Virus record (IMG/VR): IMGVR_UViG_2660238346_000006
Span: 1 to 8,003 of that record
Length of the DNA stretch: 8,003 nucleotides
DNA from: a virus
Taxonomy: Duplodnaviria > Heunggongvirae > Uroviricota > Caudoviricetes
Strand: one strand, 5' to 3'
Shown: piece by piece, positions 1-7,436 of the stretch
Layout: every line of letters starts with the position of its first letter
How positions within the stretch are numbered: position 1 is the first letter of the stretch
Notes under the pieces: generated by a model
Told to the model about the DNA's origin: nothing
The model's input: only the letters and a program-made list of their open reading frames with translations
Databases searched by the model: none
Position numbers and translations under genes: made by a program

Positions 1-67
1 CGCTTTACGTGCGACATATTCCCGTCCATGAACCCTTCACCACACCCCAAAGTTCACTTTGGTTATT

Positions 68-82
68 GCGCTTTGTCAGCGC
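68..82 (-). promoter_or_regulatory. Putative nutL boxB hairpin (P22-type, GACAA loop) on the leftward transcript
   Basis: Plus strand reads GCGCTTTGTCAGCGC, so the minus strand reads GCGCTGACAAAGCGC: a 5-bp GC stem with a GACAA loop, matching the P22-type boxB as I recall it. It lies left of the OL-like operators, where a pL transcript would carry nutL. Confidence 0.5.
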
Positions 83-149
83 CGTAGATTCATATTCGAA
101 TCGTTGTATATTCACCGCCCTGGTGAGTAGTGCGTCCTGCTGATGGGTG

Positions 150-270
150 AACTTTATCGGAATGATAAATTAATGGCAATAGCAAAATGATAAATTCTCT
201 TGGTTTTCAAATATCGTATTGATTCTTATGGTGTTTTATTTTGTTGTAGGAATTCGACAGGATAAATAAA
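150..270. promoter_or_regulatory. Putative OL/pL operator region with repeated TGATAAAT-type half-sites
   Basis: ATGATAAATT occurs at 162-171 and again at 187-196; TTTATC-N5-GATAAA inverted repeat at 154-170; GATAAAT at 261-267. The same motif family recurs in the cI/cro intergenic region (2621-2694). No sizeable ORF here. Confidence 0.45.
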
Positions 271-373
271 GAGATTTGAGGGAGATCTGGATTGCGTTGT
301 TTAGCAAGTTGTATCTATCAGTTTTTCAATAAATACAATCGATTATGTGTTTTTAGGTGGGCGAACGTGGGGC

Positions 374-399
374 AAAGAAAACCCGGCGCTGAGGCCGGG
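374..399 (-). terminator. Rho-independent terminator closing the leftward cI / toxin-antitoxin-chaperone operon
   Basis: Minus strand reads CCCGGC-CTCAGC-GCCGGG followed by TTTTCTTTG, starting about 10 nt after the stop of the SecB-like gene (409): GC-rich 6-bp stem, 6-nt loop, T-tract. Confidence 0.6.
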
Positions 400-408
400 T
401 GGGGAATT

Positions 409-813
409 TCACTTATTACTGTTCGTTTCCATGGGATTGGCCAAGAAATCAAAATAAGGCAGAGTGAACCTACCAAGGTTTGACATGAGGATAATTTGCT
501 CGGCATATGTTTTTATATAGGGATATGCCATATTGGGAGCAATGGACCTTACCTCATATGATTTTGCCATTTCATGAGAAAAATCATCTTCTGACCGGAA
601 GTCAAAGTCGTATGTGATGTCCATCTCAAGCCTGCCTTCAATAGTTACGGAGGCAAAATATCTCACTCTAAATAGCTTTGAATCCTTCACATTAGTGTAA
701 AGTTCATTATTTAGATTAACGGTTGTTTTTATGGATTTTTTTGCTGTTGAATCGCCTTCTAGCCGTGTCATAACCAAGCGTTCAACTTTTTTGCTAATGA
801 GTTCAATTTTCAT
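409..813 (-). CDS. SecB-like chaperone (third gene of the TAC-type module), 134 aa
   Basis: C-terminal segment APNMAYPYIKTYAEQIILMSNLGRFTLPYFDFLAN parallels the conserved E. coli SecB segment ([35 protein letters not shown], recalled from memory). Size is right for SecB-like chaperones. Start ATG overlaps the upstream antitoxin stop (ATGA at 810-813). Confidence 0.7.
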   Translation of the reverse strand: MKIELISKKVERLVMTRLEGDSTAKKSIKTTVNLNNELYTNVKDSKLFRVRYFASVTIEGRLEMDITYDFDFRSEDDFSHEMAKSYEVRSIAPNMAYPYIKTYAEQIILMSNLGRFTLPYFDFLANPMETNSNK

Positions 814-1466
814 GGTAATAATAAGTAATTTCCGTCAGAAGTCATTTCGTCATTCAGGTTGCTAGCCGCTGTGAAACTTGATGACAAGTTACTTATCAAA
901 GAAAAAACATTCCGTTTTTCTTTGCATTTGCCGTTACCCCTTACTGCGCTGAACAACATTTTTGAAAAGTAAGATTCTGTAGCCTTTTCAGCGAAATAAG
1001 CAGAAGGTGATGTGACGGCTGACTCACACCGAGCAATGACGCTAGTCATGGCTGTTTCTTCTTCCTCTGCGTCAACTAGGCTCCATTCAATTGCGCTCAT
1101 ATCTTGAATTAAGATATCTGCAGGAATTCCAAGTCCGTCATGTAGTCTACGGATCATTGAAAGACTTAATGGACGCTTACGATTTAAGACCTCAGATACT
1201 TTAGATGCTGAGCCAATGTATTGTTTCATATCGGCATAAGAGAGGCCTTGTTGATCCATACGGAACTTGATTGCTTCTATGGGATCTGGCTTGTCCATAG
1301 GGAACTCGCGTGACTCATAGTGCTCGATAAGCAAGCCTAGTAGTTCAAACTCATCAAAATCTTCAGTTCCAGGTTGTAAATCACTAGACGCAAGTTCAAT
1401 GAGCCTTTCCATAGCTGCAGCATGCTCTTCACTATTTTTAATGATGCGCCAGCTAGTTCGATTCAT
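810..1466 (-). CDS. higA: HigA-type antitoxin (XRE-family HTH) with ~90-aa C-terminal extension, putative chaperone-addiction region, 218 aa
   Basis: Residues ~95-130 (GSASKVSEVLNRKRPLSLSMIRRLHDGLGIPADILIQD) match the C-terminal HTH of E. coli HigA (GSKSMVSRVLSGKRKLTLEHAKKLATRFGISPALFID, recalled). The ORF then continues ~90 aa beyond where HigA normally ends. ATGA overlaps with higB upstream and the SecB-like gene downstream. Confidence 0.75.
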   Translation of the reverse strand: MNRTSWRIIKNSEEHAAAMERLIELASSDLQPGTEDFDEFELLGLLIEHYESREFPMDKPDPIEAIKFRMDQQGLSYADMKQYIGSASKVSEVLNRKRPLSLSMIRRLHDGLGIPADILIQDMSAIEWSLVDAEEEETAMTSVIARCESAVTSPSAYFAEKATESYFSKMLFSAVRGNGKCKEKRNVFSLISNLSSSFTAASNLNDEMTSDGNYLLLP

Positions 1467-1750
1467 TTAAGCCTCCACTTGTCGTACTCTGCATGAGTTC
1501 CAACTCTTTCAACTATGACCATTCCTGCCTGGTAAACAACTTGGACAACGAGCCGATAGTTATTGCCTTTTATATTAAAAATTACCCTGTTGTTAGGAAG
1601 GAAGTCGGCAGAATTAAATCTATTCCGTATGTCTTGAGTCGTTTTCCAGTTTTCTCTTATCACTTCATCATACCAAGAGTCTAAAGCCCCCTTGGCCTGA
1701 TTGTGCTTCTGGCTAAAACTGTGAAGCTTCTCTACGTTTAAGACCTTCAT
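1463..1750 (-). CDS. higB: HigB-family toxin (ribosome-dependent mRNA interferase, RelE superfamily), 95 aa
   Basis: FNIKGNNYRLVVQVVYQAGMVIVERVGTHAEYD aligns with E. coli K-12 HigB FNVGGNELRVVAMVFFESQKCYIREVMTHKEYD (recalled). Toxin-first gene order is typical of HigBA. Stop overlaps antitoxin start. Confidence 0.8.
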   Translation of the reverse strand: MKVLNVEKLHSFSQKHNQAKGALDSWYDEVIRENWKTTQDIRNRFNSADFLPNNRVIFNIKGNNYRLVVQVVYQAGMVIVERVGTHAEYDKWRLK

Positions 1751-1762
1751 AATCCGATTTTG

Positions 1763-1804
1763 TTCCCTCTTTGGGAATTATAGATTCATTTCCCATAAAG
1801 GGAA
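1763..1804. promoter_or_regulatory. Twin palindromes TTCCC-N5-GGGAA upstream of higB; candidate operator/promoter of the TAC module
   Basis: TTCCCTCTTTGGGAA at 1763-1777 and TTCCCATAAAGGGAA at 1790-1804 lie 13-54 bp upstream of the higB start, inside the 136-bp cI-higB intergenic gap. Type II antitoxins commonly autoregulate through palindromic operators. Confidence 0.45.
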
Positions 1805-1886
1805 TCTGTATTTTTATCCAGAAATGCTATGTACATCACCCAAACGTCTCTTCAGGCCACTGGTTACCAGCTATGTGACGATGAAG

Positions 1887-2591
1887 TCACGAACTTTTCA
1901 GCCACTCCCTTGCCTCGATGTCATCCAGATGGCGAGATTGCTTCAGAATACCAGCTACATACTCCACCTTTGCTACTTGATGATAAGGCAACGTTATAGG
2001 CCTGTGATCCTGGTTAATGCTTGTAAATTGGTATTCTCCATCTCTGTCATAGCCAAGAACCTTAATCATGTTGTGTCCTTCAACGGTTCTGACAAACACC
2101 TCATCACCCGGGAATACTTTGGTGTTAGGCTCAATGAGTACATATTCTCCTGATTTTATTCTGGGCCACATGCTGTCTCCTTTCACACGAAGACCAAAGG
2201 CATCTGGATCATCGCTATAAATTTTGAGCCACCCATCGCGCTCTTCGGTCATCTCGATGGCACCATCAACACCAAGAATTGCCTCACCAACCACGCGCAC
2301 TAACCCTTTTCTTACCTGACCGACAAAAGTTAAAGAATCTGAGAATGATGCAATTGGTGTTACATCATGTACCAAATCAAGCCACCCATTAGGTAACCCA
2401 AGCGCGGCTTCAAATTTTCTTGCTAGTTTATCCCCTATGTTTCGAGTGCTTTTTTCACCGGAGACTTGCGTGAGTTGAGAAGGGCTAACCCCAAGCTTAT
2501 CGGCAAAGCTTGCATTAGTGTTACCCGCGATTTTTTTATGCTCATCTAGCAAAAACGCCAGATTCGATTTGCGAATATCTTTGTTTTCCAT
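1887..2591 (-). CDS. cI: CI-like prophage repressor (N-terminal HTH, C-terminal S24/LexA-like autopeptidase), 234 aa
   Basis: HTH-like N-terminus (FADKLGVSPSQLTQVSG). C-terminal domain has the S24 catalytic-Ser motif (VKGDSMWPRIKSGEYVLIEP) and a downstream Lys (NMIKVL). Divergent from the cro-like gene across an operator-rich spacer. RBS GAGGGA upstream of ATG. Confidence 0.85.
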   Translation of the reverse strand: MENKDIRKSNLAFLLDEHKKIAGNTNASFADKLGVSPSQLTQVSGEKSTRNIGDKLARKFEAALGLPNGWLDLVHDVTPIASFSDSLTFVGQVRKGLVRVVGEAILGVDGAIEMTEERDGWLKIYSDDPDAFGLRVKGDSMWPRIKSGEYVLIEPNTKVFPGDEVFVRTVEGHNMIKVLGYDRDGEYQFTSINQDHRPITLPYHQVAKVEYVAGILKQSRHLDDIEAREWLKSS

Positions 2592-2704
2592 CTCACAATT
2601 TTCCCTCTATTTAGCAAATGGATAAATACGCAATATGATAAATTTACATTGCGGTTGATTTATCAAAATGGTAAAGTTGTTCTGTGTGATAAACGGAGGC
2701 ACTA
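2592..2704. promoter_or_regulatory. OR-type operator / divergent promoter region (PRM-like leftward, PR-like rightward)
   Basis: 113-bp spacer between divergent cI and cro-like genes containing GATAAAT (2621-2627), inverted TGATAAAT (2636-2643) and ATTTATCA (2658-2665), and TGATAAAC (2687-2694). Motif shared with the OL-like region at 154-267. Confidence 0.6.
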
Positions 2705-2938
2705 ATGAGTAATGAACTACTACGCTGGCGAAAAGAGGCTTCTAGCGAGGAATGGAAGCGACTCGCCGCATTAGCGAAAACTTCAGTTGGCTATCTTGAC
2801 CAGATTGCATATGGATTTCGAAGAGCTTCCCCTGATAAAGCGAATGCAATCGAAGAAGCTACTCGTAATTTCACGGGTTATAAACCTGTGAAAAAGGAAA
2901 ACCTAGTGTTCGTATCGCGTAGAGCATCGGCTGCATAA
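2705..2938 (+). CDS. cro: Cro-like small DNA-binding protein, 77 aa
   Basis: First rightward gene after the operator region, strong RBS (GGAGG) before ATG, small basic protein. Assignment is mainly positional; family membership not verifiable by eye. Confidence 0.6.
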   Translation: MSNELLRWRKEASSEEWKRLAALAKTSVGYLDQIAYGFRRASPDKANAIEEATRNFTGYKPVKKENLVFVSRRASAA

Positions 2939-2976
2939 GTAACACCGCTATTTTCACAATGGACATTCGTCCTACG

Positions 2977-2991
2977 TCGCTGACAAAGCGA
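2977..2991 (+). promoter_or_regulatory. Putative nutR boxB hairpin (GACAA loop), with possible boxA-like CGCTATTTT at 2946-2954
   Basis: TCGCTGACAAAGCGA: 5-bp stem with GACAA loop, near-identical to the minus-strand element at 68-82. Located between cro-like and cII, where lambdoid nutR sits. Confidence 0.5.
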
Positions 2992-3076
2992 GTCCCAATA
3001 TATCTGACCAACTAAGGCCATATGCGTTTCCACGCATACCTTTCAACTAACTATTCACTATTGGAAATATTAAGAA

Positions 3077-3442
3077 ATGACACAAACAAGTTACAGCAAA
3101 CTATCACAGCGTGACGTTGATCGCGCAGAAACAGATTTACTCATCAACCTATCAACGCTTACCCAGCGCGGTCTGGCAAAGATGATTGGCTGTCATGAAT
3201 CGAAGATAAGCAGAACGGACTGGAGACTTACCCAGCGCGGTCTGGCAAAGATGATTGGCTGTCATGAATCGAAGATAAGCAGAACGGACTGGAGATTTAT
3301 TGCTTCGGTCTTGTGTGCTTTCGGAATGGCATCAGACATCAGTCCGATTAGCAGGGCTTTTAAGTATGCGCTTGCTGAAATCACAAAGAAAAAACGCCCG
3401 GCGGCAACCGAGCGTTCTGAACAAATCCAGATGGAATTCTGA
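3077..3442 (+). CDS. cII: CII-like transcriptional activator carrying an in-frame 23-codon tandem duplication, 121 aa
   Basis: C-terminus [18 protein letters not shown] matches the lambda CII C-terminus as I recall it. Position between cro and O. Internal repeat [23 protein letters not shown] occurs twice consecutively. Confidence 0.85.
3158..3295 (+). repeat. Perfect 69-bp direct tandem duplication (2 copies) inside cII
   Basis: 3158-3226 and 3227-3295 are identical (cttacccagcgcggtctggcaaagatgattggctgtcatgaatcgaagataagcagaacggactggaga). Flanking bases differ on both sides. 69 bp = 23 codons, so the frame is preserved. Confidence 0.9.
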
Positions 3443-5805: not shown

Positions 5806-5815
5806 AGGAGTGAGC

Positions 5816-6052
5816 ATGAGCGACCTATCATTAACCCAGCCAAAGCTAAAAGAATGTCCGTTTTGCGGCGGTAATGCTCGTCTGTGGGTTGAGGCCGGAA
5901 TAAATATTGATGTGTGGGGCTATGCAGAATGTGACCTCTGTGAAGCCAGGGGGGCATGGGCACCATCAGTTGCTGCGGCGGCTGAAAAATGGAACCGGAG
6001 AGCAGGAGATGAAGCAAACCTTTCTGCTTCGCAACGAAGCAATCAGAAATAA
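5816..6052 (+). CDS. Lar-family restriction alleviation protein-like (CPFCG zinc-ribbon), ~78 aa
   Basis: KECPFCGG near the N-terminus and EKWNRRA near the C-terminus match the Lar-family pattern as I recall it. ATG at 5816 has AAGGAG 5 nt upstream; the ORF-track start at 5810 is a GTG two codons earlier. Confidence 0.55.
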   Translation: MSDLSLTQPKLKECPFCGGNARLWVEAGINIDVWGYAECDLCEARGAWAPSVAAAAEKWNRRAGDEANLSASQRSNQK

Positions 6053-6455
6053 CGCCATAGACGCCATTCTCTCACTACCCATCGACGACAAGTCACCCCA
6101 CGAAGTCCACGTTAAAGAACCCAAGCGCAGCAAAGCGCAGAATGACCGTATGTGGCCGATGCTGAACGATGTTTCGCGTCAGGTGCTATGGCATGGTCAA
6201 CGGCTGGCGCCGGAAGACTGGAAAGACCTGTTCACTGCCCTGTGGCTTAAGACCAAAAAACTGGAGCAACGAAGTGTGCCTGGTATCGACGGTGGCGTTG
6301 TCATGCTTGGTGTGCGTACCAGCAAAATGCGAAAGGCCAACATGACTGAGCTTATCGAAATCATGTTCTGGTTCGGCTCAGAGCGCAACGTGCGGTGGAG
6401 TGATGACTCCTGGCGAGAGTATGAATGGTCACAACGAAAAGGGAAGGCTGCATGA
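6009..6455 (+). CDS. ninB: NinB (Orf family recombination mediator), ~148 aa
   Basis: KAQNDRMWPMLNDVSRQVLWHGQRLAPEDWKDLFTALWLKTKKL...MLGVRTSKMRKANMTELIEIMFWFGSERNVRWSDD resembles lambda NinB. Start chosen at ATG 6009 (GGAG upstream, lambda-like length) rather than the ORF-track start at 5907, which would add an N-terminal extension running through the Lar-like gene. Confidence 0.8.
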   Translation: MKQTFLLRNEAIRNNAIDAILSLPIDDKSPHEVHVKEPKRSKAQNDRMWPMLNDVSRQVLWHGQRLAPEDWKDLFTALWLKTKKLEQRSVPGIDGGVVMLGVRTSKMRKANMTELIEIMFWFGSERNVRWSDDSWREYEWSQRKGKAA

Positions 6456-6979
6456 CTATCAAATCAAATACGCCAGCACACGACAAGGACTGCTGGCAAA
6501 CGCCGCTTTGGCTTTTTGATGCACTGGATATTGAGTTTGGATTCTGGCTGGATTCGGCAGCGAGCGACAAAAATGCTCTGTGTGCTCACTGGCTAACTGA
6601 GGCCGACGACGCGCTCAATTCTGAGTGGGTAAGCCACGGTGCAATCTGGAATAACCCACCGTACAGCAATATCAGGCCGTGGGTGGAAAAAGCCGCTGAG
6701 CAGTGCATACAACAACGACAGACGGTAGTGATGCTTGTGCCAGAGGATATGTCTGTCGGATGGTTCAGTAAGGCTCTGGAGAGTGTTGACGAAGTTCGCA
6801 TCATCACTGATGGACGGATTAATTTTATCGAACCATCGACAGGGCTGGAGAAGAAGGGAAACAGCAAAGGTTCCATGCTGCTGATTTGGCGACCGTTCAT
6901 CAGTCCTCGACGGATGTTTACTACCGTATCCAAAGCGGCATTGATGGCGATCGGGCAGGGCGTCAGGAGGGCGGCATGA
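6452..6979 (+). CDS. Phage Dam-type DNA N6-adenine methyltransferase, ~175 aa
   Basis: NPPY catalytic motif ([10 protein letters not shown]); size and organisation typical of small phage N6-adenine methyltransferases. Start ATG 6452 overlaps ninB stop (ATGA); the ORF-track start at 6425 adds 9 codons. Confidence 0.8.
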
Positions 6980-7158: not shown

Positions 7159-7298
7159 TTGACGTGATGATTTATTCGGGGCTATATTCCTCACGCGCCA
7201 GCAAAATCTGGCGTCGGGATTTGCACCCCGGATATTCAACCGCGACAGACACACGCCGCGAGCGTGTTTTTTGTTGTCGTAAGCACACGCACATCTGA
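7155..7298 (+). CDS. Small hypothetical protein at the ninF position, ~47 aa
   Basis: In-frame GTG at 7155 overlaps ninE stop (GTGA) with GAGGA upstream; alternative ATG at 7167. Product [47 protein letters not shown]; family not recognised. Confidence 0.35.
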
Positions 7299-7436
7299 AT
7301 TATGGTGGGGCGTATGGGGGAGCCGAAAGGCTCGCCGGTTGGTTGATCCGGTAGTGCAAACCCTGTACGTCTCACCACCCAAAGATTTGCACCTGACGGT
7401 GGTGATAGTTAAATTCATCAACCAGAGGGCGTTGTC

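What the first reader, a model, noticed from the sequence alone, without database searches (positions are those of the whole stretch)
374..1886. Toxin-antitoxin-chaperone (TAC-type) module occupies the rexAB slot of a lambdoid immunity region
Three translationally coupled leftward genes (HigB-family toxin, HigA-type antitoxin with a long C-terminal tail, SecB-like chaperone) sit immediately downstream of cI and end in a clean intrinsic terminator just before OL. This is the position where lambda carries rexAB, its lysogen-expressed exclusion system. The gene order mirrors the tripartite TAC paradigm from Mycobacterium tuberculosis (Rv1955-Rv1956-Rv1957, as I recall), where a SecB-like chaperone stabilises an aggregation-prone antitoxin. 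A chaperone-gated HigBA inside a prophage immunity cassette is a plausible superinfection-exclusion, abortive-infection or prophage-addiction system. I am not aware of a functional description in this context, but cannot check.
Basis: partly seen in the sequence, partly recalled or inferred. Interest (0 to 1): 0.85.

Follow-up and report, generated by a model that had tools for sequence, protein, structure and literature searches.

The report
Known HigBAC phage-defence cassette beside cI
The three genes are a real toxin-antitoxin-chaperone module sitting where lambda carries rexAB, but it is about 99% identical to the E. coli HigBAC anti-phage system whose function, trigger and genomic position were already published in 2024, so the finding is correct but not new.

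Summary
Three leftward genes with 4-nt ATGA overlaps lie between a cI-type repressor and OL, and end in an intrinsic terminator. They are higB (1463-1750), higA (810-1466) and higC (409-813).

Family assignments hold:
- The 95-aa protein hits Pfam HigB_toxin (E 4.5e-30).
- The 218-aa protein has a HigA-like HTH core plus a 97-aa C-terminal tail.
- The 134-aa protein has no Pfam hit, but its AF2 model (pLDDT 86) matches the M. tuberculosis Rv1957 SecB-like chaperone and E. coli SecB (TM about 0.73-0.76).

Mets et al. 2024 (bioRxiv 10.1101/2024.02.24.581848; Cell Host Microbe 32:1059) characterised E. coli NT1F31 HigBAC. They explicitly place it "downstream of the cI repressor", where lambda encodes RexAB. 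E. coli J6 carries the accessions they used (WP_112844288/89/90). The window proteins differ from these at 1, 1 and 2 residues, none at a mapped functional site.

Their published mechanism: HigC holds the HigA chaperone-addiction tail; lambda major tail protein gpV competes for HigC; HigA fails; HigB shuts down translation.

My additions are minor. The cassette has a conserved promoter with twin TTCCC-N5-GGGAA palindromes, it recurs behind cI in five other enterobacterial lineages, and here it sits in an H-19B/BP-4795-type Stx-phage immunity region.

The parts
1463..1750 (-). higB: 95-aa HigB/RelE-family ribosome-dependent mRNA interferase toxin
   Evidence: Pfam HigB_toxin E 4.5e-30. PADLOC PD-Lambda-2_A E 2e-42. 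PDB E. coli HigB 5ycl/5ifg E 2.6e-7 with a profile. 93/95 identical to WP_112844290.1, the HigB tested by Mets et al..
1104..1466 (-). higA, residues 1-121: toxin-neutralising N-terminus plus XRE-type HTH domain
   Evidence: HTH_3 hit at residues 67-118, below the Pfam cut-off. PDB HigA 5ycl_A/5ifg_B match at residues 53-119, E about 6e-5. PADLOC PD-Lambda-2_B match at residues 5-127, E 4e-50. This region is highly conserved across 7 homologues.
810..1103 (-). higA, residues 122-218 plus stop: chaperone-addiction (ChAD) tail with aromatic anchors W128, F158, F188, Y214
   Evidence: The residues named by Mets et al. are present at the same positions. The tail diverges between homologues, but W128 and F158 are invariant and aromatic residues persist near positions 188 and 214. 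No Pfam domain.
409..813 (-). higC: 134-aa SecB-like chaperone (SecB-TA), the phage sensor
   Evidence: AF2 model with pLDDT 86.1 and pTM 0.78. Foldseek PDB hits: 5mtw Rv1957 E 6.5e-7, TM 0.73; E. coli SecB 1qyn TM 0.76. PADLOC PD-T4-9_C (CmdC) E 2.8e-11. Pocket residues Y39, N41, R49 and D71 are present. 133/134 identical to WP_112844288.1.
371..400 (-). Intrinsic terminator of the operon (stem 381-400, T-run 371-380)
   Evidence: Terminator scan: 7-bp stem with 6 G-C pairs, 6-nt loop, then TTTTCTTT.
1763..1804 (-). Candidate higBAC promoter/operator: perfect TATAAT at 1782-1777, flanked by two TTCCC-N5-GGGAA palindromes (1763-1777 and 1790-1804)
   Evidence: The pattern occurs twice in the window, both here, against 0.01 expected. 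The position relative to the higB ATG (-54, -32, -27) is conserved in loci from Klebsiella, Citrobacter, Serratia and Enterobacteriaceae G50; Pantoea keeps only the proximal palindrome. Flanking sequence is not conserved. Function is inferred, not tested.
1833..1886 (.). Conserved junction just 3' of cI, shared by prophages with other cargo in this slot (right edge of the variable locus)
   Evidence: About 300 E. coli genomes match only query positions 1460-1513, at up to 100% identity. Two were inspected. One carries DUF3024 + a hypothetical protein + a Ser/Thr kinase, the other two small hypothetical genes.
1887..2591 (-). cI-type repressor (context)
   Evidence: Peptidase_S24 E 3.8e-16 plus a weak HTH_3 hit. 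Annotated as cI in BP-4795 and ST2-8624.
153..226 (.). OL1-OL3 operators (context)
   Evidence: Exact matches to the sites annotated in GQ499358.
2610..2693 (.). OR3-OR0 operators (context)
   Evidence: Exact matches to the sites annotated in GQ499358.

Best explanation
This is an allele of the published HigBAC toxin-antitoxin-chaperone anti-phage system. It is carried as lysogen-expressed cargo in the variable slot between cI and OL of an H-19B/BP-4795-type (Stx-phage) lambdoid immunity region.

Shown experimentally by Mets et al. on proteins differing at 4 of 447 residues:
- HigB specifically blocks translation.
- HigA neutralises HigB only when the SecB-like HigC binds HigA's 97-residue C-terminal ChAD tail through four aromatic anchors (W128, F158, F188, Y214).
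- During lambda infection, nascent major tail protein gpV presents a similar aromatic pattern (W36/W67 and a DDED patch), outcompetes the ChAD for HigC, and so frees HigB, which restricts phage production.
- The system protects against lambda-vir and Bas25.

Inferred here:
- The operon is transcribed from its own promoter (a perfect -10 between two TTCCC-N5-GGGAA palindromes, probably HigA operators). It probably also receives read-through from pRM, since no terminator separates cI from higB.
- ATGA overlaps couple translation of the three genes.
- At least one carrier phage (BP-4795) avoids self-triggering, because its major tail protein lacks the gpV trigger loop.
For: Identity to the tested system: E. 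coli J6 carries WP_112844288/89/90, the accessions cloned by Mets et al.. The window differs from these by HigC S27T, HigA R185Q and HigB Q14R/I31R, and at 12 of 1513 nt. All named functional residues are conserved.

Published function, trigger and genomic position.

Independent family and fold tests.

Anatomy.

Promoter and operator: the pattern occurs twice against 0.01 expected, and its register is conserved across genera while the flanks diverge.

Same slot in other lineages: the cassette sits directly behind an S24 repressor in 5 other enterobacterial lineages, and behind a different cI N-terminal domain in J6.

Carrier tail protein: only a marginal 25-residue match between the BP-4795 major tail protein and gpV.
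Against: - No experiment was done on this exact allele. The four substitutions are untested, although Q14 recurs in a homologue and HigC position 27 is a variable column.
- Native expression in a lysogen was not measured by Mets et al., who used Ptet. Promoter and operator function, and pRM read-through, are therefore inferences.
- The -35 element is weak (TTCCCT).
- The scan tool did not call this promoter at its threshold.
- The window covers only 8 kb, so its own tail genes are unknown.
Confidence: 0.93

Rival explanations
1. The module acts mainly as a prophage-addiction or stabilisation element (post-segregational killing of cells that lose the prophage) rather than as a defence system.
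For: HigBA was first found as a plasmid-stabilising locus on Rts1 (background cited). TA modules on mobile elements can do both jobs. The cassette carries its own promoter and travels between prophages.
Against: The near-identical system gives specific, trigger-dependent protection against lambda-vir and Bas25. Escape mutants map to gpV S54P. Other inspected occupants of the slot include a Ser/Thr kinase cassette and, in lambda itself, the RexAB exclusion system. Stabilisation was never tested, so a secondary role is not excluded.
Confidence: 0.05
2. This allele is an inactive or decaying copy: the substitutions, or the mosaic context, have disabled the system.
For: Four amino-acid differences from the tested proteins. 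The same window has an unusual 69-bp duplication inside cII, which suggests this prophage region may be degenerating.
Against: All three ORFs are intact with overlaps preserved. The mapped functional residues, promoter, palindromes and terminator are intact. The exact window HigA sequence is seen on at least 1000 contigs, and the window HigC variant on 218. The substituted positions vary naturally among homologues.
Confidence: 0.03

Closest known systems
E. coli NT1F31 HigBAC (Mets et al. 2024; HigB WP_112844290.1, HigA WP_112844289.1, HigC WP_112844288.1)
   Same: Same three genes, order, lengths (95/218/134 aa), ChAD boundaries and all mapped residues. Same location downstream of a cI repressor in a lambdoid prophage. 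99.2% nucleotide identity over the cassette.
   Different: Four amino-acid substitutions (HigB Q14R and I31R, HigA R185Q, HigC S27T). The neighbouring repressor here is the H-19B/BP-4795 type. In E. coli J6, which carries the exact WP alleles, the cassette sits beside a cI with an unrelated N-terminal domain.
Mycobacterium tuberculosis TAC (Rv1955 HigB1 - Rv1956 HigA1 - Rv1957 SecB-like)
   Same: Same toxin-antitoxin-chaperone order and the same ChAD/SecB-TA logic. The HigC model's best structural match is Rv1957 bound to a ChAD peptide.
   Different: Only about 16% identity between the chaperones. According to Mets et al., the ChAD here is more than twice as long. Also according to them, HigA inactivation does not depend on ClpXP, unlike HigA1. 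The role here is phage defence from a prophage, not a chromosomal stress response.
CmdTAC / PD-T4-9 (Vassallo et al. 2022, 2024)
   Same: A TAC-type defence system with a homologous SecB-like chaperone; the PADLOC PD-T4-9_C HMM hits HigC at E 2.8e-11. The chaperone serves as the phage sensor.
   Different: The toxin is an mRNA ADP-ribosyltransferase and the antitoxin is unrelated. It targets T-even phages.
PD-lambda-2 (Vassallo et al. 2022)
   Same: HigB matches PD-Lambda-2_A at E 2e-42, and HigA residues 5-127 match PD-Lambda-2_B residues 3-125 at E 4e-50. Both systems defend against lambda.
   Different: PD-lambda-2B continues into a C-terminal peptidase domain (402-residue profile) instead of a ChAD. 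Its third gene is P4-antitoxin-like rather than SecB-like. In that system the B component alone is toxic.
Lambda RexAB
   Same: Same genomic slot (between cI and OL) and the same general role as lysogen-expressed exclusion cargo.
   Different: No sequence or mechanistic relationship.

Membership tests
HigB/RelE-type toxin (Pfam PF09907) | Sequence match above the curated family threshold | tested here: met
   104.2 bits against a cut-off of 27, E 4.5e-30, covering profile positions 2-74 of 74.
HigB/RelE-type toxin (Pfam PF09907) | Homology to structurally solved HigB, including the C-terminal THxEYD region | tested here: met
   The profile hits 5ycl_B and 5ifg_A at E about 3e-7 over residues 5-91. 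THAEYD aligns with THKEYD.
HigB/RelE-type toxin (Pfam PF09907) | Toxicity through inhibition of translation | not testable with these tools
   Shown by metabolic labelling for the 93/95-identical NT1F31 HigB. Not tested for this allele.
HigA-type antitoxin | XRE-type HTH domain homologous to HigA, encoded immediately downstream of higB (reverse TA order) | tested here: met
   PDB HigA 5ycl_A/5ifg_B at E about 6e-5 over residues 53-119. PADLOC PD-Lambda-2_B at E 4e-50. Pfam HTH_3 scores only 20.9 bits, below its cut-off of 23. The gene order and ATGA overlap are shown.
TAC (toxin-antitoxin-chaperone) system | Third gene encodes a SecB-fold chaperone | tested here: met
   AF2 model pLDDT 86. The top 19 Foldseek PDB hits are all SecB or Rv1957, with E from 6.5e-7 to 1.4e-4 and TM 0.66-0.76. 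No sequence-level PDB or Pfam hit.
TAC (toxin-antitoxin-chaperone) system | Antitoxin carries a C-terminal chaperone-addiction (ChAD) extension beyond the canonical antitoxin domain | tested here: met
   A 97-residue extension with no detectable domain. It diverges between homologues but keeps the aromatic anchors W128 and F158 invariant, with aromatic residues at 188 and 214.
TAC (toxin-antitoxin-chaperone) system | The antitoxin neutralises the toxin only with the chaperone; deleting the ChAD removes the dependence | not testable with these tools
   Shown for the 217/218-identical HigA and 133/134-identical HigC.
E. coli HigBAC defence system (Mets et al. 2024) | Near-identity to the experimentally tested proteins | tested here: met
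   HigB 93/95, HigA 217/218 and HigC 133/134 identical to the WP_112844290/89/88 sequences as carried by E. coli J6.
E. coli HigBAC defence system (Mets et al. 2024) | Functional residues: HigA W128/F158/F188/Y214; HigC Y39/N41/R49/D71 | tested here: met
   All are present at the same positions. R49, F48 and D71 are invariant in 20 HigC homologues.
E. coli HigBAC defence system (Mets et al. 2024) | Protection against lambda-vir triggered by gpV | not testable with these tools
   Published for the NT1F31 allele. Not tested for this allele.

The most novel reading that the evidence does not exclude
EHEC strains carry many lambdoid prophages. In such strains, the HigBAC borne on an Stx prophage could be triggered during SOS induction by lambda-type gpV tail proteins made by co-resident prophages. 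It would then decide which prophages complete lytic growth, and might affect Stx-phage yield and toxin release. Its own conserved HigA-operated promoter would keep it expressed independently of cI. I did not test for co-residence of gpV-type prophages.
Probability: 0.1. Interest if true: 0.5.

Novelty: already known. Interest (0 to 1): 0.12.

Why it matters
The biology itself is interesting: a chaperone used as a sensor for a phage structural protein, carried by a prophage in the classic rexAB slot. But it was published in 2024 with genetics, biochemistry and the same genomic observation.

What this window adds is small:
- The system is standard cargo of H-19B/BP-4795-type Stx1 and Stx2 prophages in O157:H7 86-24, O26:H11 11368 and related EHEC. 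It is present in 88 of 5426 complete E. coli genomes. This matters for phage-therapy host-range prediction in STEC.
- The cassette moves with its own conserved promoter and operator.
- Its HigB/HigA core is shared with PD-lambda-2, which illustrates module swapping between defence systems.

Tried and rejected
- Sequence-only searches for HigC failed. Pfam, NCBIfam and PDB searches (phmmer and a 20-sequence profile) found nothing. Only the PADLOC CmdC model and the fold search identified it.
- NCBIfam gave no useful hit for any of the three proteins.
- The exact-sequence cluster look-up did not surface the WP accessions from the paper. The link was made instead through RefSeq annotation of E. 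coli J6.
I did not run a single-sequence model, because low confidence there would not be informative about disorder.
- The generic promoter scan did not call the higB promoter. The case for it rests on cross-genus conservation and on the palindrome statistics.
- I considered and rejected three readings. A plain two-gene HigBA with an unrelated third ORF is rejected by the SecB fold, the ATGA coupling and the conserved three-gene synteny in the six inspected homologous loci. A decayed copy and addiction-only readings are treated under the rival explanations.
- No complete E. coli genome in the collection matches the whole 8-kb window better than 97.2% over 91%, so the exact source strain was not identified.

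Full report
**Observation**

The window contains three minus-strand ORFs at 1463-1750 (95 aa), 810-1466 (218 aa) and 409-813 (134 aa). Consecutive genes overlap by ATGA. A GGAGG Shine-Dalgarno sequence precedes higA, whereas higB and higC have weak ones.

Upstream lies a 234-aa HTH + Peptidase_S24 repressor at 1887-2591 (-). Downstream, 8 nt after the higC stop, is an intrinsic terminator with stem 381-400 (6 of 7 pairs G-C) followed by TTTTCTTT.

The operator sites annotated in GenBank GQ499358 (phage ST2-8624, "similar to H-19B") match the window exactly. OL1-3 lie at 153-226 and OR3-OR0 at 2610-2693. To the right are cro, cII, O, P, ren, ninB, dam and ninE.

The window is about 99% identical to Stx phages BP-4795 and ST2-8624, and to many Stx1a and Stx2a prophages of O157 and O26. 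In BP-4795 the order is N - ORF20/21/22 - cI - cro.

**What the proteins are**

- The 95-aa protein is a HigB-family toxin. It scores Pfam PF09907 E 4.5e-30. It aligns along its whole length with E. coli K-12 HigB structures, including the THxEYD motif.
- The 218-aa protein has a HigA-like HTH core: PDB HigA at E about 6e-5 over residues 53-119. It also has a domain-less C-terminal tail.
- The 134-aa protein has no Pfam, NCBIfam or PDB sequence match. It does hit the PADLOC model for CmdC, the SecB-like chaperone of PD-T4-9/CmdTAC, at E 2.8e-11.
- An AF2 model of the 134-aa protein, built on 20 homologues, has pLDDT 86 and pTM 0.78. Its top 19 PDB matches are all SecB or SecB-like. The best is M. 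tuberculosis Rv1957 bound to a ChAD peptide (5mtw, E 6.5e-7, TM 0.73), followed by E. coli SecB (1qyn, TM 0.76).

**It is already described**

Mets et al. [quoted passage not shown] Their main findings:
- HigBA is toxic without HigC and is rescued by HigC.
- HigB specifically blocks translation.
- Deleting HigA residues 122-218 (the ChAD) removes the chaperone dependence.
- W128, F158, F188 and Y214 of the ChAD slot into HigC pockets formed by Y39, N41, R49 and D71, and HigC R49A is inactive.
- The system protects against lambda-vir and Bas25.
- Escape mutants carry gpV S54P.
- gpV binds HigC, competes with a ChAD peptide, and triggers toxicity on co-expression.

All eight named residues, the 218-aa length and the ChAD boundary are present in the window proteins.

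The accessions they cloned (HigB WP_112844290.1, HigA WP_112844289.1, HigC WP_112844288.1) are annotated in E. coli J6. Against those sequences the window differs by HigB Q14R and I31R, HigA R185Q and HigC S27T, and at 12 of 1513 nucleotides. None of these positions is a mapped functional residue. HigB position 14 and HigC position 27 vary naturally among homologues.

**Mechanism**

The steps shown by the paper for a near-identical allele are as follows. HigC (predicted to act as a tetramer, from AlphaFold modelling) holds the HigA ChAD, which keeps HigA competent to neutralise HigB. During infection, nascent lambda gpV presents an analogous aromatic pattern and diverts HigC. HigA then fails, and HigB shuts down translation and restricts the phage.

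The steps I infer from the sequence are as follows.

(i) The cassette has its own promoter.
- A perfect TATAAT (1782-1777, minus strand) lies between two TTCCC-N5-GGGAA palindromes (1790-1804 and 1763-1777).
- The pattern occurs only at these two places in the window, against 0.01 expected.
- The palindromes and the -10 keep the same register relative to the higB ATG (-54, -32, -27) in loci from K. aerogenes, C. freundii, K. pneumoniae, Enterobacteriaceae G50 and S. marcescens. Pantoea keeps the proximal palindrome only. The sequence further upstream is unrelated between these loci.
- This is the usual layout of a HigA-autoregulated promoter. E. coli K-12 HigA and HigBA are reported to bind promoter palindromes (passage quoted).
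- Mets et al. drove the operon from Ptet, and the preprint text contains no mention of "operator" or "autoregulat".

(ii) The scan finds no minus-strand terminator between cI and higB, so read-through from pRM is also plausible, as for rexAB.

(iii) The major tail protein of carrier phage BP-4795 shares only a marginal 25-residue match with gpV, and it has no tryptophan in the region corresponding to the trigger loop. That phage should therefore not set off its own HigBAC.

**Distribution and modularity**

Eighty-eight of 5426 complete E. coli genomes carry the full cassette.

HigC homologues at 50-88% identity occur across Enterobacterales. Of six such loci inspected, five place higBAC directly behind an S24 repressor in lambdoid prophages whose cro, cII and replication modules differ. 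In Serratia the cassette sits elsewhere, in a P22-like prophage.

In E. coli J6 the same cassette follows a cI whose N-terminal domain is unrelated; only residues 81-233 align, at 94%.

About 300 genomes share only the roughly 50 bp just 3' of cI (window 1833-1886) and carry other cargo. Two were inspected: one has DUF3024 + a hypothetical protein + a Ser/Thr kinase in an O157:H7 prophage, and the other has two small hypothetical genes. This fits the "variable defence locus" description.

HigB and HigA residues 5-127 also hit PD-lambda-2 A and B strongly. In that system the antitoxin continues into a peptidase domain, and the third gene is P4-antitoxin-like. One HigBA core is thus wired to two different accessory modules.

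**Verdict**

My additions are descriptive: the conserved promoter and operator, the Stx-phage carriage, and the tail-protein comparison. Interest is low.

Noticed in passing
window 3158-3299 (inside cII, 3077-3442 +): There is an in-frame 69-bp tandem duplication (2.1 copies, 98% match). It gives a 121-aa CII with the HTH segment [23 protein letters not shown] repeated twice. BP-4795 CII is 98 aa, and the eight listed top hits among complete E. coli genomes lack the duplication. I cannot tell whether this is a real mutation that probably disables CII or an assembly artefact.
   Followed up: partly
window 7195-7272 (+) and 7298-7382 (+): Rfam finds isrK (76 bits) and C4 antisense RNA (74 bits) downstream of ninE. 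This region matches antirepressor (ant / antA-antB) regions of PhiR12 phages and Nil2. It looks like a P1 immI-like antisense-controlled antirepressor module in the nin region.
   Followed up: partly
window 1104-1750 (-): HigB and the HigA N-terminal domain (residues 5-127) match PADLOC PD-Lambda-2_A and PD-Lambda-2_B at E 2e-42 and 4e-50. PD-lambda-2 replaces the ChAD with a peptidase domain and SecB with a P4-antitoxin-like gene. One HigBA core therefore serves two anti-lambda systems. The phrase 'PD-lambda' does not occur in the Mets preprint.
   Followed up: partly
window 1833-1886; L014 and L015: A conserved junction of about 50 bp just 3' of cI is shared by about 300 E. coli genomes that carry different cargo in the slot. 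One O157:H7 prophage has DUF3024 + a hypothetical protein + a Ser/Thr kinase. Another prophage has two small hypothetical genes.
   Followed up: partly
L002:19317-20030 (phage BP-4795 major tail subunit): The carrier phage's major tail protein is essentially unrelated to lambda gpV in the HigC-trigger region (no W36/S54/DDED/W67 equivalents). This would avoid self-triggering on induction. The window's own tail genes are not available.
   Followed up: partly
window 319-370: Ten of the 35 differences from BP-4795 over window 43-3230 cluster in the 50 bp just beyond the terminator. This suggests a recombination boundary at the left edge of the cassette.
   Followed up: no
window 5810-6052 (+), 6425-6979 (+): A Lar-like restriction-alleviation protein (PF14354, E 1.9e-10) and a phage Dam methyltransferase (PF05869, E 7.6e-65) lie in the nin region. 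Both are ordinary counter-defence cargo.
   Followed up: no
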